DNA of 34,851 nt from contig LJUD01000001.1 in NCBI GenBank assembly GCA_001304035.1, positions 1-34,851 of the forward strand, given 5' to 3'. The position numbers and the translations under genes were made by a program. Each line of letters starts with the position of its first letter. The first letter of the stretch is position 1. Under the pieces are notes generated by a model that saw nothing but the letters and a program-made list of their open reading frames with translations, did no database searches and was not told the origin of the DNA. Below are positions 3,484-22,592 of this stretch, in pieces. The stretch comes from a bacterium SM23_31 (GTDB lineage: Bacteria; SM23-31).

Positions 3484-3692
3484 GAGAACTCCCTTGAATT
3501 TAGTTTATGCAGCAATATCAACATTTTTATTTTGTGAAGCAAGCTTTTTTAGTCATATACGAACTCAACAAATCACTTGATTTTTTGGTTATTAAAGTCT
3601 TTTAATACAAACCCGGTAATGCGGGTATCCCCTGCCCGCCGATTAATATCTGTGATAAAAATAAACCAAAAAAGTTGATACATTTTATACAT

Positions 3693-3711
3693 TGTATTAT
3701 AAATATATACA
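3693..3711. promoter_or_regulatory. TGTAT-N9-ATACA palindrome (copy 1 of 3)
   Basis: tgtat tataaatat ataca read directly. It overlaps a sigma-70-like TTGATA(3675-3680)-N17-TATAAA(3698-3703) on the plus strand. Confidence 0.35.
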
Positions 3712-3821
3712 TTTAAAATTTCTCTGTCCTGAATTTATTTTAAACGATTTTATATTTTTTTAAGATATTGTAATTTAAAGAATTACATAAGCATTGAAAA
3801 AAGACAAACATTAGATTTCAG

Positions 3822-3831
3822 GTCACGTGAC
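3822..3831. promoter_or_regulatory. Perfect 10-bp palindrome GTCACGTGAC, candidate enhancer (UAS) for the downstream sigma-54 promoter
   Basis: Isolated GC-rich palindrome in very AT-rich DNA, about 150 bp upstream of the -24 element at 3980. Confidence 0.3.
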
Positions 3832-3979
3832 AGATTAATATGTAATATAAAATAAAACATAAGAAACATAATTTAATAACAAAATAATTTTTTAAAGAAA
3901 ACAGTCGAATCTTGTAAATAAAATAATAACAATATATTACCAATGTTTTTCATGCACGTATTATTTAAAGAAACGGATA

Positions 3980-3995
3980 TGGCATATTATTTGCA
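3980..3995 (+). promoter_or_regulatory. Sigma-54 (-24/-12) promoter
   Basis: TGGCAT-attat-TTGCA against consensus TGGCAC-N5-TTGCW, with correct GG/GC spacing. It ends 58 nt upstream of ATG 4054. An NtrC-type activator is encoded at 10361..11794. Confidence 0.6.
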
Positions 3996-4053
3996 GATTA
4001 AGTTTTCAGAACACAAGAATATTTGTCAAAAGAAAAAATAGGAGGTGATTAAA

Positions 4054-5814
4054 ATGACAACATCATTTAATGAAGTTCTGGTGGTGGATGATGAAAAAGT
4101 CGTCTGCCAAAATTGTGAGAAAATTTTAAGGGAAGAAGGTTTTTCAGTAACAACGGTATTAAGCGGGCAAGAGTGTCTCGAATTAATAAATGAAAGAAAA
4201 TATGATGCCGTTATTCTGGACTTGAAAATCCCTGATATCAACGGTATGGAAATTTTAAAAGTGATCAAGGACAAAAACCCGCGTACCGCTGTAATAATAA
4301 TAACCGGGTACTCTTCAGCGGGAAGTGCTATTGAAGCTATGAAGTTAGGGGCTGCCGATTTTATTCCCAAACCTTTTACGCCGGATGAACTTTCTATTCC
4401 TTTGAAAGAAGCATTAAAAAGGAACAATCCGCTTGGAGGGGAGGGAGATATTGCGGTAGAGCCGATTATTAAAAAAGTTAAACTCGAAGAAGAAATCAGA
4501 GAAATTAAGTATGAAGAAGAAATCAGAGAAATTAAGTATGAAAAGTGGTCTTTAGATCTTTACAAACATGCCTATTTCTCTGAATGGATGGGAGTGCAAA
4601 TCGGTAAAGATGAAACGGCTCGAATTGTGCTGAATAATATGTTTTTTGAATTAAAAGGCAAGGTGAAATATATTGACCTTCCACAGGCAGGGGAGGAAGT
4701 AGACACCGATAATCCCAGCTTCAGGATATTTTATACAAATAAGGAAACATCTTTAACCTATATGGAAGCGTTTTGTTCTCCTGTTTCCGGAAAAGTAGTT
4801 GAAGTAAATCCTTTTGCTACAAGAAAGATAAATACTGTTAATGAGGATCCATTCCATTCCGGCTGGCTTATCAGGATAGAACCTTCAAGACTTCCCGAAG
4901 ACCTTAACATGCTGGAATCACGGAGAATACTTATCGCGGATGATGATAAAGAATCGCGGGAATCGTTGAATAAATATTTCAAGGATGATATCTACAATAT
5001 TTACCAAGCCTGGGACCTGAAGGATATCATAGAAGGCGTAAAAGAAAAGCAGTATGATGTAGCAATTCTGGGAGAAAATGTATACGGCACGCCGGTCTAT
5101 GATGCGGCTCAAAATATAAGAAGCGTTGACGAAAACCTTCCTATTATTGTTGTAACTGAAATTGATTCACCTGAATTAGCCGGGAAAGTTCGGGAACATG
5201 ACATATTTTACTATGCCATGAAACCTCTGGATGAAGCTGAAATTGACCTGGCTGTCAGAAATGCTTTCATGAAAATCGAACTAAAAAAACGGGCAATTCA
5301 GAAACCGTACAGGTTCGACCTGCCAAGCTTCATCAAAAGTATAGAGGTGGTGAATCGTTCCGGGAATCGTATTGCTGTAATAGGACTGGGAAACATATTC
5401 AATGAGGATATCGGTATCGGTCAAAACCTCGTGGACAGGCTAAAGAAAAACAATCTGCCCGTTGATCTGGACATGGACAGAAGAGAGCTCTATGGGAAAG
5501 AGATTATCCCGTATATAGAGAAAAATGATAAGATTATTTTAATCAACGGGATAGAGATGGGTTTTAATCCGGGGAAAATCAAGAAATTCTTTTATGATTC
5601 ATTTAAAACCGAGATAATCGACTACAAACCCAAACAGGATATCAGAATCAGCCAAATTGGTTATCCCGAGATTATGCATTGGATAAATGCTACAGGTATT
5701 GATACTGAAATGGTTGTAATCGGAATACAGACAAATCGGAAGGAAAGATTCTCATTCTCTCTGGAACAAAATAGTGAAGTAATCGATGAAATTCTATCAG
5801 AGGTATTGTCATAA
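4054..5814 (+). CDS. Chimeric response regulator: REC, GcvH-like domain, pseudo-receiver, hydrogenase-maturation-protease-like (HycI/HyaD-fold) domain
   Basis: The track ORF starts at GTG 4045. ATG 4054 lies 8 nt after AGGAGG (4039-4044). REC: VLVVDDE...ILDLKIPD...KPF. GcvH-like: CSPVSGKVVEVN...NEDPFHSGWLIRI. Second REC-like: ILIADDD...AILGENV. C-terminus: IAVIGLGNIFNEDIGIG...IILINGIEMGFNPG. Confidence 0.8.
   Translation: MTTSFNEVLVVDDEKVVCQNCEKILREEGFSVTTVLSGQECLELINERKYDAVILDLKIPDINGMEILKVIKDKNPRTAVIIITGYSSAGSAIEAMKLGAADFIPKPFTPDELSIPLKEALKRNNPLGGEGDIAVEPIIKKVKLEEEIREIKYEEEIREIKYEKWSLDLYKHAYFSEWMGVQIGKDETARIVLNNMFFELKGKVKYIDLPQAGEEVDTDNPSFRIFYTNKETSLTYMEAFCSPVSGKVVEVNPFATRKINTVNEDPFHSGWLIRIEPSRLPEDLNMLESRRILIADDDKESRESLNKYFKDDIYNIYQAWDLKDIIEGVKEKQYDVAILGENVYGTPVYDAAQNIRSVDENLPIIVVTEIDSPELAGKVREHDIFYYAMKPLDEAEIDLAVRNAFMKIELKKRAIQKPYRFDLPSFIKSIEVVNRSGNRIAVIGLGNIFNEDIGIGQNLVDRLKKNNLPVDLDMDRRELYGKEIIPYIEKNDKIILINGIEMGFNPGKIKKFFYDSFKTEIIDYKPKQDIRISQIGYPEIMHWINATGIDTEMVVIGIQTNRKERFSFSLEQNSEVIDEILSEVLS
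4486..4539 (+). repeat. Perfect 27-bp tandem duplication (2 units) inside the CDS, encoding EEEIREIKY twice
   Basis: gaagaagaaatcagagaaattaagtat occupies 4486-4512 and repeats exactly at 4513-4539. Confidence 0.95.
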
Positions 5815-5837
5815 TTGCAATTAATTAGACCGGTAAC

Positions 5838-5880
5838 AGAGCCTTCGGGAGCATCCACTCCCGAAGGCTCTTTCTATTTC
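5838..5880 (+). terminator. Rho-independent terminator
   Basis: 13-bp perfect stem agagccttcggga / tcccgaaggctct with an 8-nt loop, followed by ttctatttc. It starts 24 nt after the stop at 5814. Confidence 0.75.
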
Positions 5881-5948
5881 ATCAATATTTTTAGTCGCTT
5901 GAATAATGCCGGAATATCCGATTATTTTTAAATATTTGCAAATAACAT

Positions 5949-5977
5949 TTGACAATATTAAATGAATTTATTATAAT
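5949..5977 (+). promoter_or_regulatory. Consensus sigma-70-type promoter for the hydrogenase/sensor operon
   Basis: TTGACA (5949-5954), a 17-nt spacer, then TATAAT (5972-5977). Confidence 0.6.
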
Positions 5978-5985
5978 ATAACTTT

Positions 5986-6006
5986 ATGTATAAATATTTA
6001 ATACAT
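5986..6006. promoter_or_regulatory. ATGTAT-N9-ATACAT palindrome (copy 2 of 3), candidate operator just downstream of the -10
   Basis: atgtat aaatattta atacat read directly, 9 nt after the TATAAT. Confidence 0.4.
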
Positions 6007-6123
6007 GTTTAGTATATGTATAAAATTATTATCATAAGCAAATTCTTTTCCTAATCGGATTAGAAAATTACTAAATCTTGAATAATAAAAAATGTTATAT
6101 TTTTATGAACAGGATAGAACACT

Positions 6124-7110
6124 ATGCATAATTTACTCTGGTTGAAAAGCGCAGGCTGTGGAGGAGACAGTATATCTCTATTGAATCTTGACCAGCCGGA
6201 TTTATATACTGCTTTTAAAATGCTTGACATAAAAGTCGTTTGGTTTCCTTCTTTGAGTTTCGAGTCTGATAAGGATGTTCATGAGATACTCAATAAAATT
6301 ATTAATGGTGAAGAAAAATTGGATTTTTTGATGGTGGAAGGAGCAGTATGCGATGAAGATGAAAATAAAACCAATTATGTTACCTTTTGTGGACATCCGA
6401 TGAAACACTGGATTATTGAGCTTGCAAAAAGAGCATCTTTCACTATCGCGGTGGGAACCTGTGCTTCTTTTGGCGGCATCATGACAACAGGTTCTGATAA
6501 TATTAAATGGATGGGTCTTCAATATTTAATGAAAAAACATGGCGGAATACTCGGGGTAGACTACAGTTCTTCTTCGGGTTTTCCTGTAATAAATATTGCA
6601 GGCTGTCCTGCTCATCCTGACTGGATAATAGAAACCCTGAATTTTATTACTAAAGGCAAACTAACAGTAGATAACCTGGACAAATATCAACGTCCGGACT
6701 TATTTTACAGTAAGCTTGCTCATCATGCTTGCCCCCGGAACGAATACTATGAATTTAAAGCTTCCGCTGAAGAATATGGTCAACAGGGATGCCTTTTTGA
6801 AAACCTGGGGTGCAAAGCAACGCAGTGTGAATCCGATTGTAATGAAAGGCTGTGGCTGGGACGCACGGGGAGCTGTACGCGGGGCGGGTTTCCCTGTATT
6901 TCCTGTACCTCTCCCGTTTTTCCGGACGGATTTTTACCATTCTTTGAAACACAGAAAATTGAAGATATCCCCACTACTCTTCCTCTTGATGTTCCCAAGG
7001 CGTGGTATGTAGGAATAAGCGGTATGGCTAAACTTGCCTGCCCTAAAAGGCTGGCTGTCAACGCTGTATCTTTTAAAAAGATTGATGTGGAAAATGAGAA
7101 AGAAGAATAA
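6124..7110 (+). CDS. [NiFe]-hydrogenase small subunit, cytoplasmic type (no Tat leader, no C-terminal anchor)
   Basis: Starts MHNLLWLKSAGCGGDS. Cluster motifs GTCASFGG, GCPAHPDW, HHACP, GCLFENLGCKATQCESDC and SCTRGGFPCISC. Confidence 0.85.
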   Translation: MHNLLWLKSAGCGGDSISLLNLDQPDLYTAFKMLDIKVVWFPSLSFESDKDVHEILNKIINGEEKLDFLMVEGAVCDEDENKTNYVTFCGHPMKHWIIELAKRASFTIAVGTCASFGGIMTTGSDNIKWMGLQYLMKKHGGILGVDYSSSSGFPVINIAGCPAHPDWIIETLNFITKGKLTVDNLDKYQRPDLFYSKLAHHACPRNEYYEFKASAEEYGQQGCLFENLGCKATQCESDCNERLWLGRTGSCTRGGFPCISCTSPVFPDGFLPFFETQKIEDIPTTLPLDVPKAWYVGISGMAKLACPKRLAVNAVSFKKIDVENEKEE

Positions 7111-7114
7111 CAGA

Positions 7115-8611
7115 ATGAATAAGACTATAACAATAGGTTCTTTCAGCCGAATTGAAGGCGATCTTGAGATAAAGGTAGAATTAGAGAACGGCAAAATCAC
7201 CAAAGCCTACACTTCCGGAACTATGTTCCGCGGATTTGAGCGAATCCTCAAAGGCAGGGACCCTATGGATTCCTTAGTTTTCACATGTAGAGTCTGCGGT
7301 CTATGCGGTCTTTCACACTCGGCTGCATCTTCCTCAGCATTAAAGGAAGCATACAAAGCGGAAATGCCCCCAAATGCTTATTATGTAAAAAATATCCTTT
7401 TAGCCATTGAAAATATTGCGAACCATCTTACACAAATATATATGTTTTTCATGGTTGATTTTTTAAATAAAAAATATAAAGACATATCGGATTATGATAT
7501 TATTGCGAAGAGATATACTCCATTTACAGGTGAATCACAAAAAAAAGTTATATACGCACGAAAAAAATTATTGGAAATTATGGGGATAATTGGGGGTAAA
7601 TGGCCTAATTCTCTGGTAATGCAGCCCGGTGGTGTAACTAAAACACTCAGCCTTAGCGAAATTGTTTCCTGCTATGGAATACTCAGTGAAATCAGGGAGT
7701 TTTTAGAGAATACCCTTCTTGGTTGTCCTATGGAAAGCTGGCTGGAAAACAGGAGCTTCAGCGATATTGAAAAATGGATGGATGATGAAAAAAATGCAAA
7801 AAGCGATTTAGGAATGTTTATAAATTTTGGGACAAAAACCGGTCTATCTGAGATAGGAGCCGGCTCAGAAAAATTATTATCCTGCGGCGCGTATGAGGAA
7901 CCGGATGGAACATTCTGGCTAAAAAGCGGTTTATATGATGGAAGTTGGCTTCCCTTTGAACAAATAAAAATAGAAGAACACATTGCTTATTCCTGGTACG
8001 AAGGGTATGACGGAGGCATTCACCCCTCTAAAGGGATAACGATACCAAACACACGGAAAGAAAATGCATATAGCTGGTCAAAGTCTCCACGATATAATAA
8101 CGAAGTTATCGAAATGGGACCTCTTGCCCGGATGTTAGTGGGAAATAATCCATTAGCTTCGGATATTTTTAAAAAAAATGGATCAAGTGTTTTTACGCGC
8201 CAATTAATGAGAATTCATGAGACTATAATGTTGGCAGGTAAAATAAAAGACTGGCTCGATAATATCGACACGGAATCTCCTTTTTATATCAAACACAATA
8301 AATTGAAAGATTGCAGCGGGATTGGTTTAATAGAGGCTGCAAGAGGAATGCTCGGACACTGGATCAGTGTGGTTGATAATAGAATTTTCAATTATCAGAT
8401 AATTACACCAACCACATGGAATTTTTCCCCCCGGGATTCAGCCGGAAATCCCGGTATTTTAGAAAAATCCCTTACAAATCTCGAAATAGAAGATCCTGAA
8501 AACCCGATTGAGATGTACCATGTAATACGGTCTTTCGATCCCTGTATGGCTTGTACAGTGCATTCCGTCCGCGGAACAAAAAACGATGCATCATTTCATC
8601 TTACAATTTAG
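7115..8611 (+). CDS. [NiFe]-hydrogenase large subunit with 15-aa C-terminal extension
   Basis: N-terminal RIEGDLEI and RVCGLCGLSH. C-terminal DPCMACTVH followed by SVRGTKNDASFHLTI. Start chosen at ATG 7115 (MNKTITIG). ATG 7094 is an alternative; the track start 7034 would overlap the small subunit by 77 nt. Confidence 0.85.
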   Translation: MNKTITIGSFSRIEGDLEIKVELENGKITKAYTSGTMFRGFERILKGRDPMDSLVFTCRVCGLCGLSHSAASSSALKEAYKAEMPPNAYYVKNILLAIENIANHLTQIYMFFMVDFLNKKYKDISDYDIIAKRYTPFTGESQKKVIYARKKLLEIMGIIGGKWPNSLVMQPGGVTKTLSLSEIVSCYGILSEIREFLENTLLGCPMESWLENRSFSDIEKWMDDEKNAKSDLGMFINFGTKTGLSEIGAGSEKLLSCGAYEEPDGTFWLKSGLYDGSWLPFEQIKIEEHIAYSWYEGYDGGIHPSKGITIPNTRKENAYSWSKSPRYNNEVIEMGPLARMLVGNNPLASDIFKKNGSSVFTRQLMRIHETIMLAGKIKDWLDNIDTESPFYIKHNKLKDCSGIGLIEAARGMLGHWISVVDNRIFNYQIITPTTWNFSPRDSAGNPGILEKSLTNLEIEDPENPIEMYHVIRSFDPCMACTVHSVRGTKNDASFHLTI

Positions 8612-8613
8612 AT

Positions 8614-9063
8614 ATGATTATTGTGATCGGATATGGAAATACGCTCAGAGGGGATGATGGAGTCGGAGTAGAAATTATACAAAAATTGAAAAAAATGAAT
8701 CTTCAAAAACATATAAAAATCATTAATGGAGGAATCAGCGGTATTGATGTGCTTATGGATATTGGGGAATTCGAGAAACTCATAATTATTGATTCGATTA
8801 TCAGCGGCGGAAAAGAAGGTGCTCTTTATCGGATAACTCCTCCGGCATTGCCGGAGGTCGAAGAAGGAGTTCTATCGACTCATGCTCCTTCCTGGATCAG
8901 CTTTTTGAGATCTAATGTTGAATCCAGCGGGAAAGGCTATTGGTCAAACGTGATTTTTTATGGCATCGAAATAAGAAACACAATGATTGGGACAGAACTA
9001 AGTTCAAAGATTGCCCGTAAAATGCCCGATTATATAAATTCCATTCTCAAGGAGCTACAATGA
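8614..9063 (+). CDS. Hydrogenase maturation endopeptidase (HyaD/HybD type)
   Basis: MIIVIGYGNTLRGDDGVGV, IIIDSI and STH motifs. ATG 8614 lies 2 nt after the large-subunit stop. Confidence 0.8.
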   Translation: MIIVIGYGNTLRGDDGVGVEIIQKLKKMNLQKHIKIINGGISGIDVLMDIGEFEKLIIIDSIISGGKEGALYRITPPALPEVEEGVLSTHAPSWISFLRSNVESSGKGYWSNVIFYGIEIRNTMIGTELSSKIARKMPDYINSILKELQ

Positions 9064-10364
9064 GTGCAACAAGAGCAGAAAATTTATTAAAGACTTCTAA
9101 TAAAGATGTGCTTCAGGAGAGAATGTGGATCGAGATCATTAATCGGATGGAAAACCTTTATGCAAAGCTGGCAAACCGGCAGGAAGAAATAGAAAAGAAA
9201 AACAGAGAATTATTAAAAACAAAAGGATTCATTGAAAATGTTCTTAACCATATGGCATGTGCATTGATCGTTCTGGATTCTAACGGCAACATTAAAATGG
9301 TCAATGATGCCGCACTGACAATACTTGGATACAAAGAAGAAGACCTCCTTGGCAGACCAATGGAATTGATCTTTGAAAAGACCGACGGGAAAAGCCTCGT
9401 TATAGGATGTTCGTATTTTGAAAAGCTGGTAAAAGACGGAGCAATTAATAATTTTGAAATTTATTTTCGCAGTAAAGAGGGCGAAAGGATCCCTATGGTT
9501 TTGAGTGGATCTGTAACGAGAAATATATCTGGTGAAATTGATGATATAATTTCCGTGGCAAGAGATCTCCGGGACACAAAACGTATGTTGGCAGAAAAGG
9601 CAAGGGCAGAAGCAGAAAGGGCAAAGGCAGATGAGTTAGAAAAGGCTTATAATGAACTTCAGGAACTTAAAGCTCAACTTATACAATCGGAAAAGATGGC
9701 ATCCCTCGGACAACTGGCTGCCGGGATTGCCCATGAAATTAATAATCCGCTTACCGGTGTTTTGACTTCCGGGCATATATTACTTAAGAGATGTAAACCG
9801 GTTGATTCTAATAGAGAAGACCTTGAAATTATTGTCAATGAGACAACCCGGTGCCGGGAAATAGTACGGGGGCTTCTGGATTTTGCCCGACAGTCCAGTC
9901 CCCAAATGGTAACTGTAGACCTGACAAAATTAATTAACAAAACCCTCTCGATTATGGAAAATCAATTTCATATCAAAAATATTAAAATAATTAAAAAGTT
10001 GAAGGAAAATATCCCGGAGATTATGTTAGATGTAAACCAGATCGAGCAGGTTTTTGTCAACCTTTTACTAAATTCCATTGAAGCAATGCCCGAAGGTGGG
10101 ACCATTCTCATTGCTACTGAATACGATCAGTATTATATAATTATTACTTTTCAAGATACCGGACAAGGCATTCCCGAGAATATAATAGGAAAAATATTTG
10201 ATCCGTTTTTTTCAACGAAGTCTCGGAAAAAGGGTACAGGACTCGGCTTGTCAGTCAGCTACGGAATTATAAAGAAACATAATGGAACAATAGAAGTAAA
10301 AAGCAAGGAAAATGAAGGAACAATATTTACAATAAAACTTCCCATAAAACAAAATATTCTATGA
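9060..10364 (+). CDS. Soluble PAS-domain sensor histidine kinase
   Basis: No hydrophobic segments. PAS-like region LIVLDSNGNIKMVNDAA. H-box AAGIAHEINNPL. HATPase G-boxes DTGQGI and GTGLGL. ATGA overlap with the upstream gene. Confidence 0.85.
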   Translation: MSATRAENLLKTSNKDVLQERMWIEIINRMENLYAKLANRQEEIEKKNRELLKTKGFIENVLNHMACALIVLDSNGNIKMVNDAALTILGYKEEDLLGRPMELIFEKTDGKSLVIGCSYFEKLVKDGAINNFEIYFRSKEGERIPMVLSGSVTRNISGEIDDIISVARDLRDTKRMLAEKARAEAERAKADELEKAYNELQELKAQLIQSEKMASLGQLAAGIAHEINNPLTGVLTSGHILLKRCKPVDSNREDLEIIVNETTRCREIVRGLLDFARQSSPQMVTVDLTKLINKTLSIMENQFHIKNIKIIKKLKENIPEIMLDVNQIEQVFVNLLLNSIEAMPEGGTILIATEYDQYYIIITFQDTGQGIPENIIGKIFDPFFSTKSRKKGTGLGLSVSYGIIKKHNGTIEVKSKENEGTIFTIKLPIKQNIL

Positions 10365-11794
10365 GTATGCTCGAAGAAAAAATTAATAAAAACATCGCTG
10401 TCCTGGTCATTGATGACGAGTCGGTGGTAAGAAATGCATGCCGCAAAATCCTGACAGAAGAAGGTTACAAGGTTATTCTGGCTGAAAACGGCAGAGAAGG
10501 CCTGGAAAAATCTGAAATGGGAATAGGAGATGTCATTCTCGTTGACCTTAAAATGCCGGATATAAGCGGGATGGAGGTTTTGAAAGAGATAAAGATAAAA
10601 TTTCCCCGTAAACCCGTCATCGTAATAACGGGATATTCCACAGTAGATTCAGCCGTGGAAGCGATGAAATTAGGCGCTTTCGATTATGTTCCAAAACCAT
10701 TTACACCGGATGAGCTTTCTCTTATTGTTCACAAAGCTTTAGAAAAGAAAAAGCTGCTTGATGAGTTAGATTTCTTGCGGAAAGAGCTTTATGAAAAATA
10801 TAAAGTTAAAAACATAATCGGTAAAAGCGAGGGGATGAAGGAAGTTTTTCGTCTTGTCAGCAAGGTTGCAAATACAGACAGCACCGTCCTGATCTATGGA
10901 GAAAGTGGTACAGGCAAAGAGGTAATAGCAAAGGCTATTCATATCCAGAGCCGCCGGCAGGACAAAAGGTTTTTGGCGATTGACTGCAGTGCTCTATCCC
11001 CGACCCTTCTTGAAAGTGAATTATTCGGACACGTAAAAGGAGCTTTCACAGGTGCAATATCTACCAAACCGGGCATTTTTGAAATAGCAAACAACGGAAC
11101 AATTTTCCTCGATGAAATATCGAATATCAGTTCTGAAATACAGGCTAAACTCCTGCGGATTATCGAAGAGCAAGAATATAAGCCGGTCGGCGGCTCTGAA
11201 ATGAAAAAAATCGATGTCCGGTTAATATCTGCTACAAATAAAGACCTTAAATTGTTTGTCAAAAAAAATATATTCAGGGAAGACCTTTTTTATCGTTTGA
11301 ACGTTTTTCCGATATTCCTTCCTCCATTGAGAGAAAGAAAGGAAGACATTCCACTTTTAGCTACCCATTTCTTAAAACTGTTCACAAAAGAGCTGAACAA
11401 ACAAATAGACGGATTTTCCGATGAATCCATGAATCTTTTTATCAATTATCATTGGCCCGGAAATGTCAGGGAGTTGAAAAACACGGTGGAAAGGCTGGTA
11501 ATTACCGTGGAAGATGATATTATCAAACCGGAATATTTATCCGATATTCTTAAGACGCAAAGTATAAGAGAATACATAACCATCCCGAAAGATAAAGACG
11601 AATTAAGAAAACTGAAGAAAAAGATTAAGAATCAGGCAATTGCAGAGCTCGAGAAAAAATTCCTTTTAGAATCACTGAAACAAAATAACTGGAATGTTTC
11701 ACGGGCTGCCCGGGAAACCGGATTTCAAAGAACAAATTTTCATACTCTAATGAGAAAATACAAGATTAAATTATCAGATAAAGAGTCTTTCTGA
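10361..11794 (+). CDS. NtrC-family sigma-54-dependent response regulator (REC, AAA+, Fis-type HTH)
   Basis: REC with VDLKMPD. Walker A GESGTGKE. GAFTGA motif intact. C-terminal HTH NVSRAARETGFQRTNFHTLMRKY. ATGA overlap with the kinase gene. Confidence 0.9.
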   Translation: MSMLEEKINKNIAVLVIDDESVVRNACRKILTEEGYKVILAENGREGLEKSEMGIGDVILVDLKMPDISGMEVLKEIKIKFPRKPVIVITGYSTVDSAVEAMKLGAFDYVPKPFTPDELSLIVHKALEKKKLLDELDFLRKELYEKYKVKNIIGKSEGMKEVFRLVSKVANTDSTVLIYGESGTGKEVIAKAIHIQSRRQDKRFLAIDCSALSPTLLESELFGHVKGAFTGAISTKPGIFEIANNGTIFLDEISNISSEIQAKLLRIIEEQEYKPVGGSEMKKIDVRLISATNKDLKLFVKKNIFREDLFYRLNVFPIFLPPLRERKEDIPLLATHFLKLFTKELNKQIDGFSDESMNLFINYHWPGNVRELKNTVERLVITVEDDIIKPEYLSDILKTQSIREYITIPKDKDELRKLKKKIKNQAIAELEKKFLLESLKQNNWNVSRAARETGFQRTNFHTLMRKYKIKLSDKESF

Positions 11795-11824: not shown

Positions 11825-11845
11825 TCCGCCAGAGGCGGATTTGTA
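11825..11845. terminator. Short hairpin between the convergent operons, possible terminator
   Basis: tccgcc aga ggcgga followed by tttg on the plus strand. The stem is only 6 bp with a weak T-tract. Confidence 0.35.
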
Positions 11846-11941: not shown

Positions 11942-12385
11942 TCATCCCGTCAAGATATTAACTAACCTGCAAACCGATTGTTCCAATTCGGTGCTCAATC
12001 CTTCTTTAAGCTCAGTTGTTGCCGGTTGAATACCGAGTAGAAAAATTTTAGCTGGAATATGCTGGCAAATATAAGAAGCGAAAAGGTTCAGAGAAGCATT
12101 ATGTGTAGAGAATCCATATTCACTACATTCGTCAGGAGTAAAGATTTTCCAACTGCCGGGTTCGCCTTCAAAGGAGAGAGCATCTATAATGATAATAGTA
12201 TCCGGGCGATACTGGATAATAAACTTAGTATAATTTTCAGGAACTGTTCCAACGTCTAATATATTAGTAAAACCTGCCGAAGATAATTTTTCAACTAAAA
12301 CCGGACCAACCCCATCATCTCCCCGCTGGCGATTACCCACACCGATAAAAAGTACACGCCCGACAGCAATCTCGTCAAGATTCAC
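11942..12385 (-). CDS. Hydrogenase maturation endopeptidase (HycI type)
   Basis: FIGVGNRQRGDDGVG, IIIDAL...PG and FSTHNASL motifs. It is the last gene of the group-4 hydrogenase cluster. Confidence 0.8.
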   Translation of the reverse strand: MNLDEIAVGRVLFIGVGNRQRGDDGVGPVLVEKLSSAGFTNILDVGTVPENYTKFIIQYRPDTIIIIDALSFEGEPGSWKIFTPDECSEYGFSTHNASLNLFASYICQHIPAKIFLLGIQPATTELKEGLSTELEQSVCRLVNILTG

Positions 12386-12497
12386 AATTAATCATGATAA
12401 TTATTCAAACTTTTATTGTATAGTATTTATTATTTTTATAATAAATTGATGTCTGGAGCAGGAGTATTCACTTCTGAGATATTATCACACGAAAGGT

Positions 12498-13118
12498 TTA
12501 TTCAAATGTGCCCCACTCTTCGGAAAGGATTACGTTTCTGCGGCAGTCGGGACATAAAATCCGGGCATTATCATTCCTTCCGATTCTCCGTTTATCCCGT
12601 TCCGGTGTTTGGGCTACCAGTTCTAATTCCCCCAAACCGACAAGCATCAATGTCCAGTTTCCGGCAACACTCGAGCCTAACCGGTGGTAAATCCACTTCA
12701 AGTGATCCTTCGTAGCAAACGGTCTGCCGCATATTTCACATTTAACCATCTCTTTTTCAACTTTTTCAACAGCGTCTGCCCGATCAAAAACGGCAAGATC
12801 AAACTCCTGATTCTGAATAATCCCCTTTTTAGTAGTGCATTTTTCCACGCACGTTCCACAATAAACACAATTATCCAAATGGACGGTTAATATACGATAT
12901 ATCTTATCATCTTTCTGTTCTTCGGTAATTTCAATTGCATTAGCCGGACATACTTCGCTGCAAGCTCCGCATCCGATGCATTCTTCCTCCTGATATTCCG
13001 GTTTGCCCCGAAATTCTACAGGTATCGGAGGAGGAGATTTTGGAAAATCTATTGTATAGGGACCCGCTACTAATGCGATAACTGCTTCTTTTAATTCCCG
13101 TAGTTTCGGTTTCTTCAT
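12498..13118 (-). CDS. 2x[4Fe-4S] ferredoxin subunit, HycF/NuoI-like
   Basis: CIGCGACSEVCP and CVYCGTCVEKC, plus a C-terminal CEICGRPF...CPDCRR tail resembling the Cys tail of E. coli HycF. Confidence 0.75.
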   Translation of the reverse strand: MKKPKLRELKEAVIALVAGPYTIDFPKSPPPIPVEFRGKPEYQEEECIGCGACSEVCPANAIEITEEQKDDKIYRILTVHLDNCVYCGTCVEKCTTKKGIIQNQEFDLAVFDRADAVEKVEKEMVKCEICGRPFATKDHLKWIYHRLGSSVAGNWTLMLVGLGELELVAQTPERDKRRIGRNDNARILCPDCRRNVILSEEWGTFE

Positions 13119-13141
13119 GATTTTATTTCTCCGCCAATATT

Positions 13142-13492
13142 TCAGGAGTCTTCTTTTTTCAGCGAACCTTGCCGGTCTTCAAGGTACTTATCACATGCAC
13201 TGCCTTTCCATAATTTATAACCGGCTTTATGGGACGCTCGCGAAATGGCATGTGCCGCAGTAGGTGAAGTCATAAAAATAAACCAAATGCAAAGAATAGC
13301 TTTTATACCTACTGCATTTATACCATTATAAAAGACTGCCCCTAAGAGAATTAAGCACGTTCCTAAAGTAACACATTTTGTCGAACTCTGGAGCCGGTTG
13401 TATACATCAGGAAGCCGTACCAAGCCTAAACAGCCGGAAAAGTCGAAAATAAGTCCGCAAACGATCAAAATAAATCCGATTGTTTCAGTCAT
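13142..13492 (-). CDS. Mrp/Mnh antiporter subunit G-like
   Basis: Three TM segments with RLPDVYNRLQSSTK and SPTAAHAISRA motifs. Start moved to ATG 13492, which overlaps the upstream stop by 8 nt; the track start 13528 would overlap more. Confidence 0.75.
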   Translation of the reverse strand: MTETIGFILIVCGLIFDFSGCLGLVRLPDVYNRLQSSTKCVTLGTCLILLGAVFYNGINAVGIKAILCIWFIFMTSPTAAHAISRASHKAGYKLWKGSACDKYLEDRQGSLKKEDS

Positions 13493-13739
13493 CGTAAGTT
13501 CTTCCTTCCAGAAACTTTGATAAAGCAATCGATCCTATAAAGCTCAATAACGCCCAGGCTAAGGCAATGTTCATATATAAATCTTGCTTGCTTAATGCAG
13601 AGAATATCCCACAAAATCCAACTATAATAATTCCTAATATATCATTAGCCACTATCCGGTCGGATGGTGTCGGACCAAAGGCAATTCGGTACAGACACAT
13701 AAAACAACATATAATTAATACAACAATACAACCGGTCAT
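13485..13739 (-). CDS. Mrp/Mnh antiporter subunit F-like
   Basis: 84 aa, three hydrophobic helices, GPTPSDRIVAND motif. Confidence 0.7.
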   Translation of the reverse strand: MTGCIVVLIICCFMCLYRIAFGPTPSDRIVANDILGIIIVGFCGIFSALSKQDLYMNIALAWALLSFIGSIALSKFLEGRTYDD

Positions 13740-14257
13740 TCGAATATCCTCCTGAGAATATTTTCAAATTTATTTACGATAATAATAGTTGCGCCTTCTA
13801 TGTCTTTCGCAAGCACATTAATCCAATGAATATAGAGATATTCTCCTTCTATATCTACAGTTAAGGTACCCGGGGTTAACGTGATAGAATTTGCCAGAAA
13901 TGTCTTTGCAAGATCGGTTGTAAGGGCAGTACGAACCTTTACTATCCCTGGATTAATGGGCAAGTCCGGATGGAGCACCCGGTAGAGAACATCAAGATTT
14001 GCCTTGAATACACAATAGAGAAAATAAGGGATATATACTAAAAGCCAGAAAAGACGGCGTGGAGTAAATAGTAGTACCATGTTAGGGGGAAACAAATCCG
14101 ATAAAAAAAGCACAACGCCTGCTGCAACAATTACGCCGACAATTAAGGTCAACGGGTCTATTGTCCATGTAAGCGCTAACCAAATAAGAAACATTAAAAG
14201 AAACTCAAAAAGGCGTACTCTGAATTTGAATCCTGTTGACTTTTCTATTGACTCCAT
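13736..14257 (-). CDS. Mrp/Mnh antiporter subunit E-like
   Basis: 173 aa. N-terminal TM pair, then ANSITLTPGTLTVDI motif. 4-nt overlap with the F subunit. Confidence 0.7.
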   Translation of the reverse strand: MESIEKSTGFKFRVRLFEFLLMFLIWLALTWTIDPLTLIVGVIVAAGVVLFLSDLFPPNMVLLFTPRRLFWLLVYIPYFLYCVFKANLDVLYRVLHPDLPINPGIVKVRTALTTDLAKTFLANSITLTPGTLTVDIEGEYLYIHWINVLAKDIEGATIIIVNKFENILRRIFE

Positions 14258-14491
14258 ACGATATCCCGGAAAATTACATTATTTATTTGTTAAAAACGTC
14301 AAAGAGGTTTACGATGCCTCATTGACGCCCCGAGTATTCGGGGCGGCTACCGATTATATTTTTTATTATTACCTGCACATGATAGCCGCACACCTATAGT
14401 GTGCGCTTGATTTTGCCAAAGTTCTGCTAATATTAAAATTTGCGAAAGTCCTGATAATAGCATAATTCTAATAGCAAACAGCTAACAGTGA

Positions 14492-15973
14492 TTATGGAAC
14501 TACTTGTAATACCAGTTGTATATATTTTTGCTGGTCTATTACGGTATCCCGTGCTATCTCTAATAAAGTATTGCCGAAAAAGGGATATAGAAGACCGGAC
14601 AGGAGACATAATACTGCAAAAATAACAAGCACCGTCCCCATTAAAACCGGAACCTCCTTGATGTTCTTCAATTTCTCAGGGAGGTCTCCAAATATAGAAT
14701 ATCTCTGTACCTTAATGAAGGAGACCAGCGTAAGAAAACTGACACCAACGGTAACTGCTGCGATTGCATAATATTCCGCCTGAACCAGGGCAATAATAAT
14801 AAGCAATTTGCTCCAGAAACCGTTAAACGGGGGTATTCCGGATATAGAAAGTGATGCAATAGAGCATGAGCTTGAAGTAACCGGCATTCTTTTAAAGAGT
14901 CCGCCCATTTCCTTAAGATTTCTCGTGCCGGTACTGTATTCAACTGCCCCCGAGCATAAAAATAAAAGAGACTTGAAAAAAGCATGGTTCATCAAATGGA
15001 ACAAAGCTCCGAGTATGCCCAGAGGAGTAGCAAGCCCGATTCCAACCATTACATAACCCATCTGACTTATACTGTGATATGCTAAAAGCCGTTTGAAGTC
15101 CCACTGCCCCACAGCGAGTAATACACCGACAACCATCGACAATACTCCGAGGGACATCAATATTATATGAGTGATATTGGTCATACCGATAACATGGTAA
15201 ACGACACGAATGATAGCATAAATACCACAGGCTTTGATGAGTACTCCCGAGAGCATGGCAGAAATTGGTGCAGGGGCAGATGGGTGAGCATCCGGCAGCC
15301 ATGCATGAAATGGAACCATAGCACCTTTCAAGCCAAAACCCATAATAAAAAGCCCTTCTGCAAAGAGAACCGATCTGTTTATCCCGTTAGCCAAAATTGA
15401 GTTAGCCAAATCAGCCATGTTCAGTGTTCCAAAAGTAGCATATAAAATTGCAATACCCAGCAAAATTAATGTAGATGAAACACTTCCTAAAATCATATAT
15501 TTGAAAGAAGCTTCCAATTCTTCATGTTCGCATCCAAATCCCACCAGTGCATAGGAGGAAATAGTAGCAATCTCTAAAAACACAAATAAATTAAATATGT
15601 CACCTGTAATAACCACACCGCTCATTCCCGCTACCATTAACATAAAAAGTGAGTAAAACCGTATCTTGGATGTGTACATCTCCATATATTTAAATGAATA
15701 TAAAAGGGATAATAAACCCACGATATTTATAAGGAGTAATAATAATGTGCTAATACTATCAGAAACCAGCGTGATACCTATCGGGGGTATCCACTTTCCA
15801 ATAAAATATGAAAACGGTTCATGACCAATTAGAGCAATAACCATGATAAGTAAAATGATTTCTGCAATAGCCACAATGACTTCAACTAATTTGGTGAGCG
15901 ATTTCGGAAAAAGGAGAATAAGAAATGCTACGCCTAACGGAATAGCGACGAACAATGGATACAATTGCTGCAT
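14492..15973 (-). CDS. Antiporter-like proton/sodium-translocating subunit (MrpD/NuoM/N family)
   Basis: 493 aa and polytopic. Motifs WLPDAHPSAPAPISAMLSG and LLAYHSISQMGY. Confidence 0.85.
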   Translation of the reverse strand: MQQLYPLFVAIPLGVAFLILLFPKSLTKLVEVIVAIAEIILLIMVIALIGHEPFSYFIGKWIPPIGITLVSDSISTLLLLLINIVGLLSLLYSFKYMEMYTSKIRFYSLFMLMVAGMSGVVITGDIFNLFVFLEIATISSYALVGFGCEHEELEASFKYMILGSVSSTLILLGIAILYATFGTLNMADLANSILANGINRSVLFAEGLFIMGFGLKGAMVPFHAWLPDAHPSAPAPISAMLSGVLIKACGIYAIIRVVYHVIGMTNITHIILMSLGVLSMVVGVLLAVGQWDFKRLLAYHSISQMGYVMVGIGLATPLGILGALFHLMNHAFFKSLLFLCSGAVEYSTGTRNLKEMGGLFKRMPVTSSSCSIASLSISGIPPFNGFWSKLLIIIALVQAEYYAIAAVTVGVSFLTLVSFIKVQRYSIFGDLPEKLKNIKEVPVLMGTVLVIFAVLCLLSGLLYPFFGNTLLEIARDTVIDQQKYIQLVLQVVP

Positions 15974-16034
15974 AATTACCTATCTAACCCCAAATATAAT
16001 TTATGATGAGCAAACAGAAGTCTACAATTATTCT

Positions 16035-16385: not shown

Positions 16386-16397
16386 TGAAACTTCTCC

Positions 16398-16880: not shown

Positions 16881-16913
16881 TTGAGTGCGCTCCTTTGTTT
16901 ACCGGTGTACCTA

Positions 16914-17444: not shown

Positions 17445-17464
17445 AAAGCCCTCTCATTGAAAAT

Positions 17465-19291: not shown

Positions 19292-19429
19292 GGACTTTTA
19301 CCTTAACTATTACTATTAAGCTTCTTTATCTCCCGAAAGTACGTGCCCGAATTCATTACAGCAGGGTCGACAAGGAACTCACTTTTCCGGATAATCCAAA
19401 TGTCATATAATCATTCACATCCGGGTTTT

Positions 19430-21551: not shown

Positions 21552-21622
21552 TTGCCCTTATATAATCTTAAATTGAAAAGTAATTGGTTTTTTTTCGATT
21601 ATTAAAAATACCTTTCAAAATT

Positions 21623-22558: not shown

Positions 22559-22592
22559 ATGTTTTAAACCCTTGCTGGAGAATATATTTATC

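What the first reader, a model, noticed from the sequence alone, without database searches (positions are those of the whole stretch)
3980..11794. HupUV/HupT/HupR-like H2-sensing cassette with non-canonical wiring
The small subunit lacks a Tat leader and a membrane anchor. The large subunit is followed, with ATGA-coupled overlaps at 9060 and 10361, by a soluble PAS histidine kinase and a REC-AAA+(GAFTGA)-HTH sigma-54 activator. This is the gene logic of the proteobacterial regulatory hydrogenases (HoxBC-HoxJ-HoxA, HupUV-HupT-HupR).

Three things differ here.

- The only good sigma-54 promoter I find (TGGCAT-N5-TTGCA, 3980-3995) drives the chimeric response regulator. That gene is insulated by a strong terminator (5838-5880). 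The hydrogenase/kinase/activator genes sit behind a consensus sigma-70 promoter.
- The receiver of the chimeric protein is a close paralogue of the NtrC receiver. More than half of aligned positions are identical by eye, including AxEAMKLGAxDxxPKPFTPDELS. This suggests one kinase feeds two regulators.
- The cassette is convergent with a group-4 hydrogenase operon that could be its physiological target.
Basis: partly seen in the sequence, partly recalled or inferred. Interest (0 to 1): 0.75.

Follow-up and report, generated by a model that had tools for sequence, protein, structure and literature searches.

The report
Hydrogen-sensor cassette driving a pseudo-enzyme regulator
An uncultured anaerobe carries a HupUV/HoxBC-type hydrogen-sensing hydrogenase with its kinase and sigma-54 activator, and the activator's conserved local target is an odd regulator built from a dead hydrogenase-maturation protease, which is linked by comparative genomics to a neighbouring energy-converting hydrogenase.

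Summary
The described genes and signals are real, with one omission. A hydrogenase maturation protease gene (8614-9063) lies between the large subunit and the kinase, and the large subunit keeps a 15-residue C-terminal tail. Canonical H2 sensors lack both.

The hydrogenase is a Tat-less group 2 enzyme. Proteobacterial HoxC/HupV sensors nest inside its family in my tree. The small-subunit C-terminus and the kinase N-terminus resemble HoxB and HoxJ/HupT. A PAS kinase follows the hydrogenase genes in relatives only 45-50% identical.

The six-gene cassette is conserved in four lineages. A -24/-12 promoter precedes the chimeric regulator gene, or a relative of it, in 12 of the 13 distinct loci where the upstream DNA is held.

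New points:
- The regulator is REC, then GcvH-like without a conserved lipoyl lysine, then a pseudo-receiver, then a HycI-like domain that has lost two of three metal ligands.
- In three other contigs its orthologue sits directly upstream of the orthologous group-4 operon.
- A compound DNA element occurs exactly twice in the window, upstream of the regulator gene and upstream of the group-4 operon.

H2 sensing itself is inferred, not shown. I rate this a new variant of a known kind, moderately to highly interesting.

The parts
3688..3711 (+). Compound cis element TACA-T-TGTAT-N7-ATATACA. Candidate upstream activator site, copy 1.
   Evidence: Exactly 2 matches in the window and 0 in 100 shuffles. 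It sits at the same place upstream of the regulator gene in L002, L005, L011 and L012 and in L025. Variants that depart from the strict pattern by one or more bases occur in L013 and L023 and in L027, L028 and L035.
3765..3787 (+). Conserved near-palindrome ATATTGTAATTTAAAGAATTACA. Second candidate activator site.
   Evidence: Conserved in L002. It is nearly identical (2 mismatches) upstream of the 39%-identical regulator homologue of a KSB1 genome, L012.
3822..3831 (+). Perfect 10-bp palindrome GTCACGTGAC.
   Evidence: L002 has GTTACGTAAC at the same position, a symmetric double change that keeps the palindrome. It is not kept in L005 or L011.
3927..3939 (+). IHF-like site TAACAATATATTA (WATCAANNNNTTR with 1 mismatch), lying between the upstream elements and the promoter.
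   Evidence: The block is conserved in all four loci. L002 and L011 have a perfect TATCAATATATTA. The IHF consensus is from my own knowledge.
3980..3995 (+). Sigma-54 type -24/-12 promoter TGGCATATTATTTGCA.
   Evidence: The position is conserved in L002, L005 and L011, with TTGT at -12. Equivalent sites lie upstream of homologues in L012, L013, L023, L025, L027, L028, L029, L031 and L035.
4054..5814 (+). Chimeric response regulator of 586 aa. REC1 is canonical (D12, D13, D56, T84, K106). It is followed by a GcvH-like domain with no conserved lipoyl lysine, then REC2, a pseudo-receiver with Gly at the phospho-Asp position, then a HycI-like pseudo-protease.
   Evidence: Pfam, family alignment, match to PDB 5TTX, alignment of HycI-like domains, AF2 domain pLDDT of 80-90.
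5838..5871 (+). Intrinsic terminator with a 14-bp stem and 9 G-C pairs.
   Evidence: The stem is kept through compensatory changes in L002 and L005.
5949..5977 (+). Consensus sigma-70 promoter TTGACA-N17-TATAAT.
   Evidence: It is the only 12/12 match in 9 kb. It is identical in L002, and the -35 hexamer is kept in L005.
6124..7110 (+). Group 2 [NiFe]-hydrogenase small subunit. It has no Tat leader and a HoxB-like C-terminal peptide.
7115..8611 (+). Group 2 [NiFe]-hydrogenase large subunit. It has RIEGD, RVCGLCGLSH and DPCMACTVH followed by a 15-aa extension.
8614..9063 (+). Hydrogenase maturation endopeptidase of the HybD/HycI family, with the metal ligands intact.
9060..10364 (+). Soluble PAS histidine kinase, HoxJ/HupT-like.
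10361..11794 (+). NtrC-family sigma-54 activator (REC, AAA+ with GAFTGA, HTH_8).
11825..11839 (+). Terminator-like hairpin after the activator gene.
11942..27656 (-). Convergent group-4 (Mrp-linked) [NiFe]-hydrogenase operon. It also encodes AsrA/AsrB-like subunits, a molybdopterin oxidoreductase (formate dehydrogenase alpha-like) and its own HycI. This is the likely physiological target.
   Evidence: The large subunit has CGIC...H and DPCYSCTER plus a 44-aa tail.
27804..27828 (-). Second copy of the compound cis element (TACA-CC-TGTAT-N7-ATATACA). Its 5' end lies 208 nt upstream of the first ATG of the group-4 operon (27620).
28110..28125 (-). Weaker -24/-12-like site TGGCACAATTTTTGTA, about 490 nt upstream of the group-4 operon.
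   Evidence: It is not conserved in L011. No other such site lies between the element and the ATG.

Best explanation
I read this as an H2-sensing two-component system of the HoxBC-HoxJ-HoxA / HupUV-HupT-HupR type, in an uncultured anaerobe that is probably related to KSB1.

**Proposed mechanism**
1. The sigma-70 promoter at 5949 transcribes five genes: sensor hydrogenase small subunit, large subunit, its own maturation protease, a soluble PAS kinase, and an NtrC-type activator. This part is shown.
2. The cytoplasmic hydrogenase reports H2 to the kinase, probably through the HoxB-like C-terminal peptide of the small subunit. This is inferred.
3. The kinase sets the phosphorylation state of two paralogous receivers: the activator's receiver and REC1 of the chimeric regulator. 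This is inferred from 56% identity and intact phospho-acceptor residues.
4. The activator binds the conserved upstream elements (TACA-N-TGTAT...ATATACA and ATATTGTAATTTAAAGAATTACA). With an IHF-like bend it fires the -24/-12 promoter at 3980. Conservation of the architecture is shown. Binding is inferred.
5. That promoter's only product is the chimeric regulator, because a strong terminator closes the unit. The protein has one live receiver and three degenerate domains (GcvH-like, pseudo-receiver, HycI-like without metal ligands). It therefore acts through protein contacts, not catalysis or DNA binding.
6. Its most likely partner or target is the group-4 Mrp-type hydrogenase complex encoded next door. 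It may also serve as an inducible phosphate sink on the kinase.
7. The second copy of the cis element in front of the group-4 operon suggests the activator also acts there directly.
For: **The cassette is a conserved unit**
- The six-gene cassette occurs in four lineages with different flanks: window, L002/L003, L005 and L105.

**The hydrogenase looks like a sensor**
- It is a group 2 enzyme. The best PDB match is Huc and the large subunit is 39% identical to HoxC.
- HoxC/HupV nest within this family in the NJ tree. Bootstrap is 75 for their local clade, 59 for the clade that holds the window together with 2b, and 100 for a separate 2a clade.
- The small subunit lacks a Tat leader. It is 45% identical to HoxB and 35% to a Huc-type small subunit. 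Its C-terminal stretch LPLDVPKAWYVG...KLA.PKR matches HoxB.
- The gas-channel positions are Leu and Phe. Sensors have Ile and Phe, and standard enzymes have Val and Leu (PMC11023054).
- The operon encodes no electron-acceptor subunit.

**The kinase is HoxJ/HupT-like**
- It aligns with both over its full length and shares the N-terminal motif W-x-[ED]-[IV]-[IL]-x3-[ED]-x2-Y-x2-L.
- A PAS kinase follows the hydrogenase genes in distant relatives L008, L009 and L010.
- In L008 the activator gene is followed by a -24/-12 site, then a regulator with a related pseudo-receiver, then a group-3b-like hydrogenase operon.

**The sigma-54 promoter is conserved**
- -24/-12 sites lie upstream of regulator-family genes in the window, L002, L005, L011, L012, L013, L023, L025, L027, L028, L029, L031 and L035.
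- The background rate of such sites is 0.015 per 100 bp.

**Activator and cis element go together**
- The recognition helix QRTNFH[AT]LM[RN]KY is shared by activators in loci that carry the elements. It is absent from the L008 activator and from HoxA.
- The cis element occurs twice in the window and zero times in shuffles.

**The group-4 operon is linked to the regulator**
- The regulator orthologue (59-62% identical) sits directly upstream of the orthologous group-4 operon in L011, L025 and L027. The group-4 large subunits there are 86-88% identical to the window's.

**The regulator is a pseudo-enzyme**
- In the HycI-like domain the metal ligands are changed, D62 to N and H93 to Q. REC2 lacks the phospho-acceptor Asp. 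No lipoyl lysine is conserved in the GcvH-like domain.
Against: - Features that define canonical regulatory hydrogenases are missing. The large subunit keeps a C-terminal extension and has a dedicated protease. The L1 motif ends in His, as in catalytic enzymes, not the Gln67 of HoxC.
- Deep nodes of the NJ tree are weakly supported (28-61%). I had no reference sequences for groups 2c, 2d or 2e, so the HydDB subgroup is undetermined.
- No canonical -24/-12 site lies between the cis element and the group-4 start codon. The element is absent from the group-4 leader in L011.
- L005 and L105 carry the cassette without an adjacent group-4 operon.
- More distant regulator relatives head Hdr-like or cytochrome operons, not hydrogenase operons.
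- The domain-only structure model is poor (pLDDT 55). Its fold matches do not separate HycI from other alpha/beta sandwiches.
- rpoN is not in the window.
Confidence: 0.6

Rival explanations
1. The group 2 hydrogenase is a working cytoplasmic uptake or H2-recycling enzyme, in the manner of group 2a Huc. The PAS kinase and activator simply share its operon and sense something else, such as redox state or a metabolite, through the PAS domain.
For: - The large subunit keeps the catalytic-type L1 His, a C-terminal extension and a dedicated protease.
- Huc (2a) is the best solved match.
- Large-subunit identity to 2a (40%) equals that to 2b (39%).
Against: - The operon has no electron-acceptor or partner subunit.
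- PAS-kinase linkage is conserved across relatives 45-54% identical, including members whose large subunit has no extension and no protease, like true sensors.
- The small-subunit C-terminus resembles HoxB, and the kinase N-terminus resembles HoxJ/HupT.
- The sensors nest inside this family.
- The operon is behind a sigma-70 promoter, not under its own activator.
Confidence: 0.2
2. The sensing cassette is as proposed, but the chimeric regulator is only an inducible phosphate sink or feedback element on the kinase. It has no specific hydrogenase partner. Its proximity to the group-4 operon reflects co-transcription history, not a physical interaction.
For: - REC1 is a close paralogue of the activator's receiver in all loci, at 44-57% identity.
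- All other domains have lost their catalytic or acceptor residues.
- Relatives head operons for different redox complexes.
Against: - The three degenerate domains are well conserved. They carry a family-specific motif, Q-I-G-[YF]-P..W..A.G, in the HycI-like domain. That argues for a retained binding function.
- A pure sink would need only REC1.
Confidence: 0.25
3. The conserved upstream elements are bound by a different global regulator, not by the cassette's activator. The shared element at the regulator gene and at the group-4 operon would then reflect a common second input.
For: - At the group-4 operon the element is followed by a sigma-70-like TTGAAT-N17-TATAAT (read by eye) and by no -24/-12 site.
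- At the regulator gene the element lies unusually far from the promoter, about 270 bp upstream of -24.
Against: - The element co-occurs with activators that share one recognition helix, across distant loci with different sensor kinases. It is absent where the helix differs.
Confidence: 0.2

Closest known systems
HoxBC-HoxJ-HoxA of Cupriavidus necator and HupUV-HupT-HupR of Rhodobacter capsulatus (group 2b regulatory [NiFe]-hydrogenase systems)
   Same: - Tat-less cytoplasmic small subunit with a HoxB-like C-terminal peptide.
- Group 2 large subunit with RxEGD and bulky gas-channel residues.
- Soluble PAS kinase with the same N-terminal motif.
- NtrC-family activator with GAFTGA.
- The sensor genes are expressed from a promoter separate from the regulated one.
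   Different: - The large subunit keeps a C-terminal extension and a dedicated endopeptidase.
- The L1 motif has His instead of Gln.
- Gene order differs: SSU-LSU-protease-HK-EBP here, hoxA-hoxB-hoxC-hoxJ in C. necator.
- The host is an anaerobe with group-4 and other anaerobic hydrogenases, not an aerobic Knallgas or phototrophic proteobacterium.
- The activator's conserved local target is a non-DNA-binding multi-domain regulator gene, not an uptake hydrogenase operon.
Group 2a (Huc / cyanobacterial-type) and putative group 2c [NiFe]-hydrogenases (HydDB)
   Same: - Cytosolic group 2 enzymes.
- Huc is the best solved-structure match.
- 2a enzymes also have a C-terminal extension, a protease and the L1 His.
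- 2c enzymes are predicted sensors in anaerobes and methylotrophs (PMC5037454 and PMC4853749).
   Different: - 2a forms a separate clade with 100% bootstrap and is not kinase-linked.
- 2c is described as linked to diguanylate cyclases. Here, and in all relatives examined, the partner is a histidine kinase.
- I had no 2c reference sequence to test.
HybD/HycI [NiFe]-hydrogenase maturation endopeptidases
   Same: The C-terminal domain of the chimeric regulator is homologous to them (Pfam HycI E 3e-6; PDB 5TTX E 2.7e-6). It keeps the GxGN start and the general alpha/beta layout.
   Different: - Two of the three metal ligands are replaced, Asp to Asn and His to Gln. None of the three is conserved across the REC-fused family.
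- The domain has its own motif, QIG[YF]P.
- It is fused to receiver domains.
- It is most likely a binding module, not a protease.
Classical NtrC/IHF-dependent sigma-54 promoters (for example glnAp2 or nifH)
   Same: A GG-N10-GC core, an IHF-like site about 45 bp upstream, and palindromic upstream sites.
   Different: - The -12 element is TTGT in most orthologous loci.
- The best-conserved upstream element lies about 270 bp from -24.
- The transcription unit is a single gene closed by a strong terminator.

Membership tests
Regulatory (H2-sensing) [NiFe]-hydrogenase, group 2b (HoxBC/HupUV) | Large and small subunits fall in group 2 and branch with HoxC/HupV rather than with catalytic 2a enzymes. 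| tested here: inconclusive
   In the NJ tree 2b nests within the window's kinase-linked family and 2a is separate with 100% bootstrap. The clade joining the window and 2b has only 51-59% support, and no 2c-2e references were available. The small subunit is 45% identical to HoxB and 35% to a 2a small subunit.
Regulatory (H2-sensing) [NiFe]-hydrogenase, group 2b (HoxBC/HupUV) | The small subunit has no Tat signal peptide and no membrane anchor. | tested here: met
   The protein starts MHNLLWL, three residues before the conserved core. HoxK has a 43-residue RRSFLK leader and a C-terminal anchor.
Regulatory (H2-sensing) [NiFe]-hydrogenase, group 2b (HoxBC/HupUV) | The small subunit has the C-terminal peptide used for oligomerisation and kinase docking. 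Its role in HoxB is from my own knowledge. | tested here: met
   IPTTLPLDVPKAWYVGISGMAKLACPKRLAVNAVSF aligns with HoxB IPIGLPTDMPKAWFVALASLSKSATPKRVKLNATAD, about 47% identical. The Huc-type tail is unlike it. The function was not tested.
Regulatory (H2-sensing) [NiFe]-hydrogenase, group 2b (HoxBC/HupUV) | The large subunit ends at the DPCxxCxxH histidine, with no C-terminal extension and no endopeptidase needed. | tested here: not met
   The large subunit has a 15-residue extension, SVRGTKNDASFHLTI, and an adjacent protease gene at 8614-9063. Some family members do lack an extension (P0115), and P0056 has only 4 residues.
Regulatory (H2-sensing) [NiFe]-hydrogenase, group 2b (HoxBC/HupUV) | Sensor-type active-site surroundings: Asp in RxEGD, and Gln in place of the L1 His (HoxC D15 and Q67). 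| tested here: not met
   Asp is present (RIEGD), but 2a enzymes have it too. The L1 motif ends in His (RVCGLCGLSH), unlike HoxC RVCGICSVSQ.
Regulatory (H2-sensing) [NiFe]-hydrogenase, group 2b (HoxBC/HupUV) | A narrow gas channel: Ile and Phe where standard enzymes have Val and Leu (PMC11023054). | tested here: met
   Leu sits at the HoxC I62 position and Phe at the F110 position. Leu is an isomer of Ile, not identical to it. Some relatives have Leu or Tyr at the second site.
Regulatory (H2-sensing) [NiFe]-hydrogenase, group 2b (HoxBC/HupUV) | Genetic linkage to a soluble HoxJ/HupT-type PAS kinase and an NtrC-family regulator. | tested here: met
   The linkage is conserved in L002, L005, L105, L008, L009 and L010.
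Regulatory (H2-sensing) [NiFe]-hydrogenase, group 2b (HoxBC/HupUV) | H2-dependent control of kinase activity, low catalytic turnover, and insensitivity to O2. | not testable with these tools
   This needs biochemistry.
Sigma-54 dependent promoter | GG and GC elements 10 bp apart, matching TGGCAC-N5-TTGCW, placed upstream of a gene. | tested here: met
   TGGCATATTATTTGCA lies at 3980-3995, 58 bp before the ATG.
Sigma-54 dependent promoter | Conservation at orthologous positions, an upstream activator site, and a cognate activator nearby. | tested here: met
Sigma-54 dependent promoter | rpoN is present in the genome, and a transcription start lies near +1. | not testable with these tools
   No rpoN is in the window. 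The genome is not available.
HybD/HycI hydrogenase maturation endopeptidase (for the C-terminal domain of the chimeric regulator) | Sequence homology to the family. | tested here: met
   Pfam PF01750 E 3.2e-6, 27.4 bits against a cutoff of 23. PDB 5TTX E 2.7e-6 over 123 residues.
HybD/HycI hydrogenase maturation endopeptidase (for the C-terminal domain of the chimeric regulator) | The three metal-binding residues (HybD E16, D62, H93). | tested here: not met
   The first is kept in the window (NED). The second is Asn and the third is Gln. None is conserved across the REC-fused domains, whereas both true proteases in the window keep all three.
Glycine-cleavage H protein / lipoyl carrier (for the second domain of the chimeric regulator) | A conserved lipoyl-lysine in the hairpin. 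| tested here: not met
   Pfam GCV_H scores E 3e-14. The aligned position is K, R, E or N among close homologues, and a 5-residue insertion follows it.
Response regulator receiver (REC1 and REC2 of the chimeric regulator) | An acidic pocket, the phospho-acceptor Asp, and the conserved Thr and Lys. | tested here: met
   REC1 has D12, D13, D56, T84 and K106, all present and invariant. REC2 has Gly at the acceptor position (DVAILG), so it is a pseudo-receiver.

The most novel reading that the evidence does not exclude
A dedicated H2-sensing hydrogenase controls an energy-converting group-4 hydrogenase through more than transcription. It also acts through a phosphorylation-gated adaptor whose output domain is a catalytically dead maturation endopeptidase. 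Phosphorylated or unphosphorylated REC1 would let the HycI-like domain bind the long C-terminal tail of the group-4 large-subunit precursor. That binding would gate its final maturation step. This would be post-translational, signal-dependent control of [NiFe]-hydrogenase maturation. REC-HycI-like proteins would then be a new class of response-regulator output, spread across many uncultured anaerobes.
Probability: 0.15. Interest if true: 0.85.

Novelty: new variant of a known kind. Interest (0 to 1): 0.62.

Why it matters
- H2 sensing by regulatory hydrogenases has been worked out only in aerobic or phototrophic Proteobacteria. This locus, and the large family around it in Nitrospirota, Thermodesulfobacterium, Aerophobetes, WOR-3 and KSB1-like bacteria, suggests the same logic is widespread in anaerobes. 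There it would couple H2 partial pressure to H2-evolving or H2-consuming complexes, which is central to syntrophy and sediment energetics.
- The family contains members with and without the large-subunit extension and protease. It is therefore a natural series for asking what turns a catalytic hydrogenase into a sensor.
- The sigma-54-driven REC / GcvH-like / pseudo-REC / pseudo-HycI protein is an undescribed type of response regulator, as far as the searched literature shows. It has clear, testable partners.

Tried and rejected
- **Species-genome scan.** A scan of the species-genome collection with the large subunit returned only a 24%-identical Omnitrophota hit. It gave no named close genome and no rpoN check.
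- **Source contig.** An exact look-up of the window's large subunit found only a 2-kb contig.
- **Literature.** Greening et al. 2016 is not held. Searches on group 2c gave little beyond the HydDB table and a motif quotation. The quoted 2c L2 motif, SFDxCLVCTVH, does not discriminate between subgroups.
- **Fold searches.** The whole-protein search returned only receiver domains. The domain-only model was poor (pLDDT 55), and its matches mix HycI/HybD with lumazine-synthase-like and flavodoxin-like folds. I count this as inconclusive.
- **Sigma-54 at the group-4 operon.** I looked for a conserved sigma-54 promoter in front of the group-4 operon. I found only the weaker site at 28125, which is not conserved in L011, and nothing between the cis element and the ATG. 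I reject the idea that the group-4 operon has a clear sigma-54 promoter in the window.
- **Riboswitch or sRNA.** A check for these in the leaders found no Rfam match.
- **Diguanylate cyclase linkage.** I considered whether distant relatives are cyclase-linked, as group 2c is described. Pfam shows hybrid histidine kinases instead.
- **Metagenome scan.** The scan with the regulator alignment used receiver-domain peptides, so most of its 80 loci are generic receivers. Only L025, L027, L028-L031 and L035 were informative.

Full report
**1. What is in the sequence**

The plus strand from 3980 to 11840 holds two transcription units.

Unit 1:
- It starts at a -24/-12 site, TGGCATATTATTTGCA (3980-3995).
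- It has a strong ribosome-binding site and ATG at 4054.
- It encodes a single 586-aa gene (4054-5814).
- It ends at a 14-bp-stem terminator (5838-5871).

Unit 2:
- It starts at the only perfect TTGACA-N17-TATAAT in the 9 kb scanned (5949-5977).
- It encodes a [NiFe]-hydrogenase small subunit (6124-7110), a large subunit (7115-8611) and a maturation endopeptidase (8614-9063).
- It then encodes a soluble PAS-HisKA-HATPase kinase (9060-10364) and a REC-AAA+(GAFTGA)-HTH_8 activator (10361-11794).
- The genes are tightly coupled, with a 4-nt gap, a 2-nt gap and two ATGA overlaps.
- A hairpin follows at 11825-11839.

Convergent on the minus strand (11942 to about 27656) is a genuine group-4 operon:
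- Its large subunit has RICGICSVTH and DPCYSCTER followed by a 44-residue tail.
- It has Mrp-type membrane subunits and NuoH/B/C-like subunits.
- It has a molybdopterin oxidoreductase (formate dehydrogenase alpha-like) and AsrA/AsrB-like iron-sulfur and flavin subunits.
- It has its own HycI.

No Rfam family matches the window. rpoN is not in the window.

**2. What kind of hydrogenase**

- Both subunits match M. smegmatis Huc (group 2a) best among solved structures. The scores are 367 and 223 bits, against 244 and 112 for the periplasmic group 1 [NiFeSe] enzymes.
- Against plasmid records the large subunit is 39% identical to C. necator HoxC, the H2 sensor.
- I built an NJ tree with three 2b, four 2a and two 1d references plus 34 family members. 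Group 2a is a separate clade with 100% bootstrap.
- In that tree HoxC/HupV nest inside the family that contains the window. Support is 75% for their local clade and 51-59% for the larger one. No 2c-2e references could be obtained, so the HydDB label stays open.
- The small subunit has no Tat leader. It is 45% identical to HoxB and 35% to a Huc-type subunit.
- It shares the HoxB C-terminal peptide. In C. necator that peptide mediates oligomerisation and HoxJ binding; this is from my own knowledge.
- The two gas-channel positions that are Ile and Phe in sensors, and Val and Leu in standard enzymes (PMC11023054), are Leu and Phe here.

Against strict membership:
- The L1 motif ends in His, not the Gln of HoxC.
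- The extension and protease are present.
- Within the family some members have no extension (P0115) or 4-6 residues (P0056, P0257) and no adjacent protease. The trait therefore varies within the family.

**3. Kinase and activator**

- The kinase aligns with HoxJ from residue 10 to the end at 25% identity.
- It shares with HoxJ and a Fuscovulum HupT an N-terminal helix, MWIEIINRMENLYAKL in the window and TWLDVIRKMDEVYLQL in HoxJ.
- The activator is a standard GAFTGA enhancer-binding protein, 34% identical to HoxA.

**4. Conservation**

- The six-gene cassette recurs in L002/L003 (large subunit 86% identical), L105 (77%) and L005 (76%). Flanks differ: the group-4 operon in L002, an IS21 element and a group-3c-like cluster in L005, and unrelated genes in L105.
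- In relatives 45-54% identical (Nitrospirota-type and others; named members include Thermodesulfobacterium hydrogeniphilum and an Aerophobetes protein annotated HupV) the two hydrogenase genes are always followed by a PAS kinase or hybrid kinase.
- In L008 the order is SSU, LSU, kinase, activator, then a -24/-12 site. After that come a regulator whose first domain resembles REC2 of the window protein, a REC-kinase, and a group-3b-like hydrogenase operon. That is a direct sensor-to-hydrogenase wiring in a relative.

**5. The promoter of the chimeric gene**

- The 330 bp upstream are strikingly conserved in the window, L002, L005 and L011.
- The conserved blocks are the TGGCA(C/T)-N5-TTTG(C/T) core, an IHF-like TATCAATATATTA block about 45 bp upstream, ATATTGTAATTTAAAGAATTACA, and TACA-N-TGTAT-N7-ATATACA.
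- -24/-12 sites also precede the homologous or related regulator genes in L012, L013, L023, L025, L027, L028, L029, L031 and L035.
- In L012, L013, L029, L031 and L035 a kinase and an activator sit immediately beside the regulator gene. The kinases in L012 and L013 carry Cache sensor domains. The activators in L029, L031 and L035 are 49-51% identical to the window's.
- The background rate of such sites is 0.015 per 100 bp, so this association is not chance.
- Activators in loci that carry the elements share the recognition helix QRTNFH[AT]LM[RN]KY. The L008 activator and HoxA do not.
- I conclude that 'kinase, then activator, then sigma-54, then this regulator family' is a conserved module. 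In the window's lineage its input is a hydrogenase.

**6. The chimeric regulator**

- REC1 is a complete receiver.
- The GcvH-like domain has no conserved lipoyl lysine.
- REC2 has Gly at the phospho-acceptor position.
- The HycI-like domain has Asn and Gln where HybD has D62 and H93. Both true proteases in the window keep all three ligands.
- An exhaustive profile-free search with residues 181-586 found 1542 relatives. They include about 520-560-aa REC-GcvH-REC proteins and shorter REC-HycI-like and REC-REC-HycI-like proteins.
- All the REC-fused HycI-like domains lack the ligands and share the motif QIG[YF]P..W..A.G. One of them heads a multihaem cytochrome / Hdr-like / NuoF-like operon, again behind a -24/-12 site.
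- I found no paper describing such fusions.
- AlphaFold gives confident individual domains (pLDDT 80-90) joined by flexible linkers.

**7. Link to the group-4 operon**

- In L011, L025 and L027 the orthologous regulator (59-62% identical) lies directly upstream of, and co-directional with, the orthologous group-4 operon. The group-4 large subunits there are 86-88% identical. The gap between regulator gene and operon is only about 140 nt in L027.
- In the window the pattern TACA-N{1,2}-TGTAT-N{2,12}-ATATACA occurs exactly twice, at 3688-3711 upstream of the regulator gene and at 27828-27804 upstream of the group-4 operon. Both copies point toward their gene. The pattern occurs zero times in 100 shuffles.
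- No -24/-12 site lies between the second copy and the ATG. A sigma-70-like TTGAAT-N17-TATAAT is there by eye.
- The weaker TGGCACAATTTTTGTA at 28125 lies upstream of the element and is not conserved in L011.
- Co-regulation is therefore well supported, but its mechanism at the group-4 promoter is open.

**8. Host**

The housekeeping aminopeptidase P in the window matches named KSB1 proteins best, at 59-62% identity. The nearest named relative of the regulator is also from KSB1. This is a weak taxonomic inference.

**9. Verdict**

- The interpretation as a HupUV/HupT/HupR-like sensing cassette with unusual output wiring is supported by phylogeny, shared accessory motifs, conserved synteny and conserved promoter architecture. 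It is not proven biochemically.
- It is not a strict member of canonical group 2b, because two defining features were tested and not met. It most likely works like one.
- The most original element is the sigma-54-driven pseudo-enzyme regulator and its tie to the group-4 hydrogenase.

Noticed in passing
window 4486-4542: A perfect 27-nt tandem duplication (2.1 copies, 100% match) sits in the REC1-GcvH linker of the chimeric regulator. It gives EEEIREIKY twice. All homologues lack it, so it is a recent in-frame slippage event.
   Followed up: partly
window 5997-6023: TTTAATACATG-like repeats (period 11, 2.5 copies) lie just downstream of the sigma-70 promoter of the sensor operon. The block ATAAATATTTAATACATGTTT is conserved in L002 and L005. 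It may be an operator for autoregulation. It contains ATACA/TGTAT-like half sites similar to those of the upstream element.
   Followed up: partly
window 28159-28599 and 28702-30585 (minus strand): An RsbW-type anti-sigma-factor kinase (HATPase_c_2) and a 627-aa ORF with no Pfam match lie immediately upstream of the group-4 operon leader. They may add a partner-switching input.
   Followed up: no
window 14258-14491 (minus-strand operon): A 235-nt non-coding gap lies inside the group-4 operon, between the MnhE-like and MrpD-like genes. It has two GC-rich hairpins (GCGCACACTATAGGTGTGCG and GCCGCCCCGAATACTCGGGGCG). L002 has a larger gap at the same place, with a similar first hairpin.
   Followed up: no
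window 22593-23342 (minus strand): A 249-aa TPR-repeat protein is encoded in the middle of the group-4 hydrogenase operon, between the HycB-like ferredoxin and the NuoH-like subunit. It is conserved at the same place in L011. That is unusual for such operons.
   Followed up: no
L027 5560-5930: In one relative a small ORF sits between the -24/-12 promoter and the regulator gene. By eye it resembles NifX/NifB-type FeMo-cofactor-binding proteins. The promoter there would drive three units: small ORF, regulator and group-4 operon.
   Followed up: no
L010 13787-14483 (minus strand): Ten copies of AGGCACCGTGGTTGTA, spaced at multiples of 27 nt, lie inside an unannotated 276-aa ORF next to a distant sensor-hydrogenase locus. 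This points to a repetitive protein, not promoters.
   Followed up: no
L005 1406-6299: In the 76% relative the cassette lies just downstream of a group-3c-like (MvhD/FlpD-linked) hydrogenase with its own protease, a single-domain receiver and a membrane kinase. The sensor cassette tends to sit beside whichever hydrogenase the genome has.
   Followed up: partly
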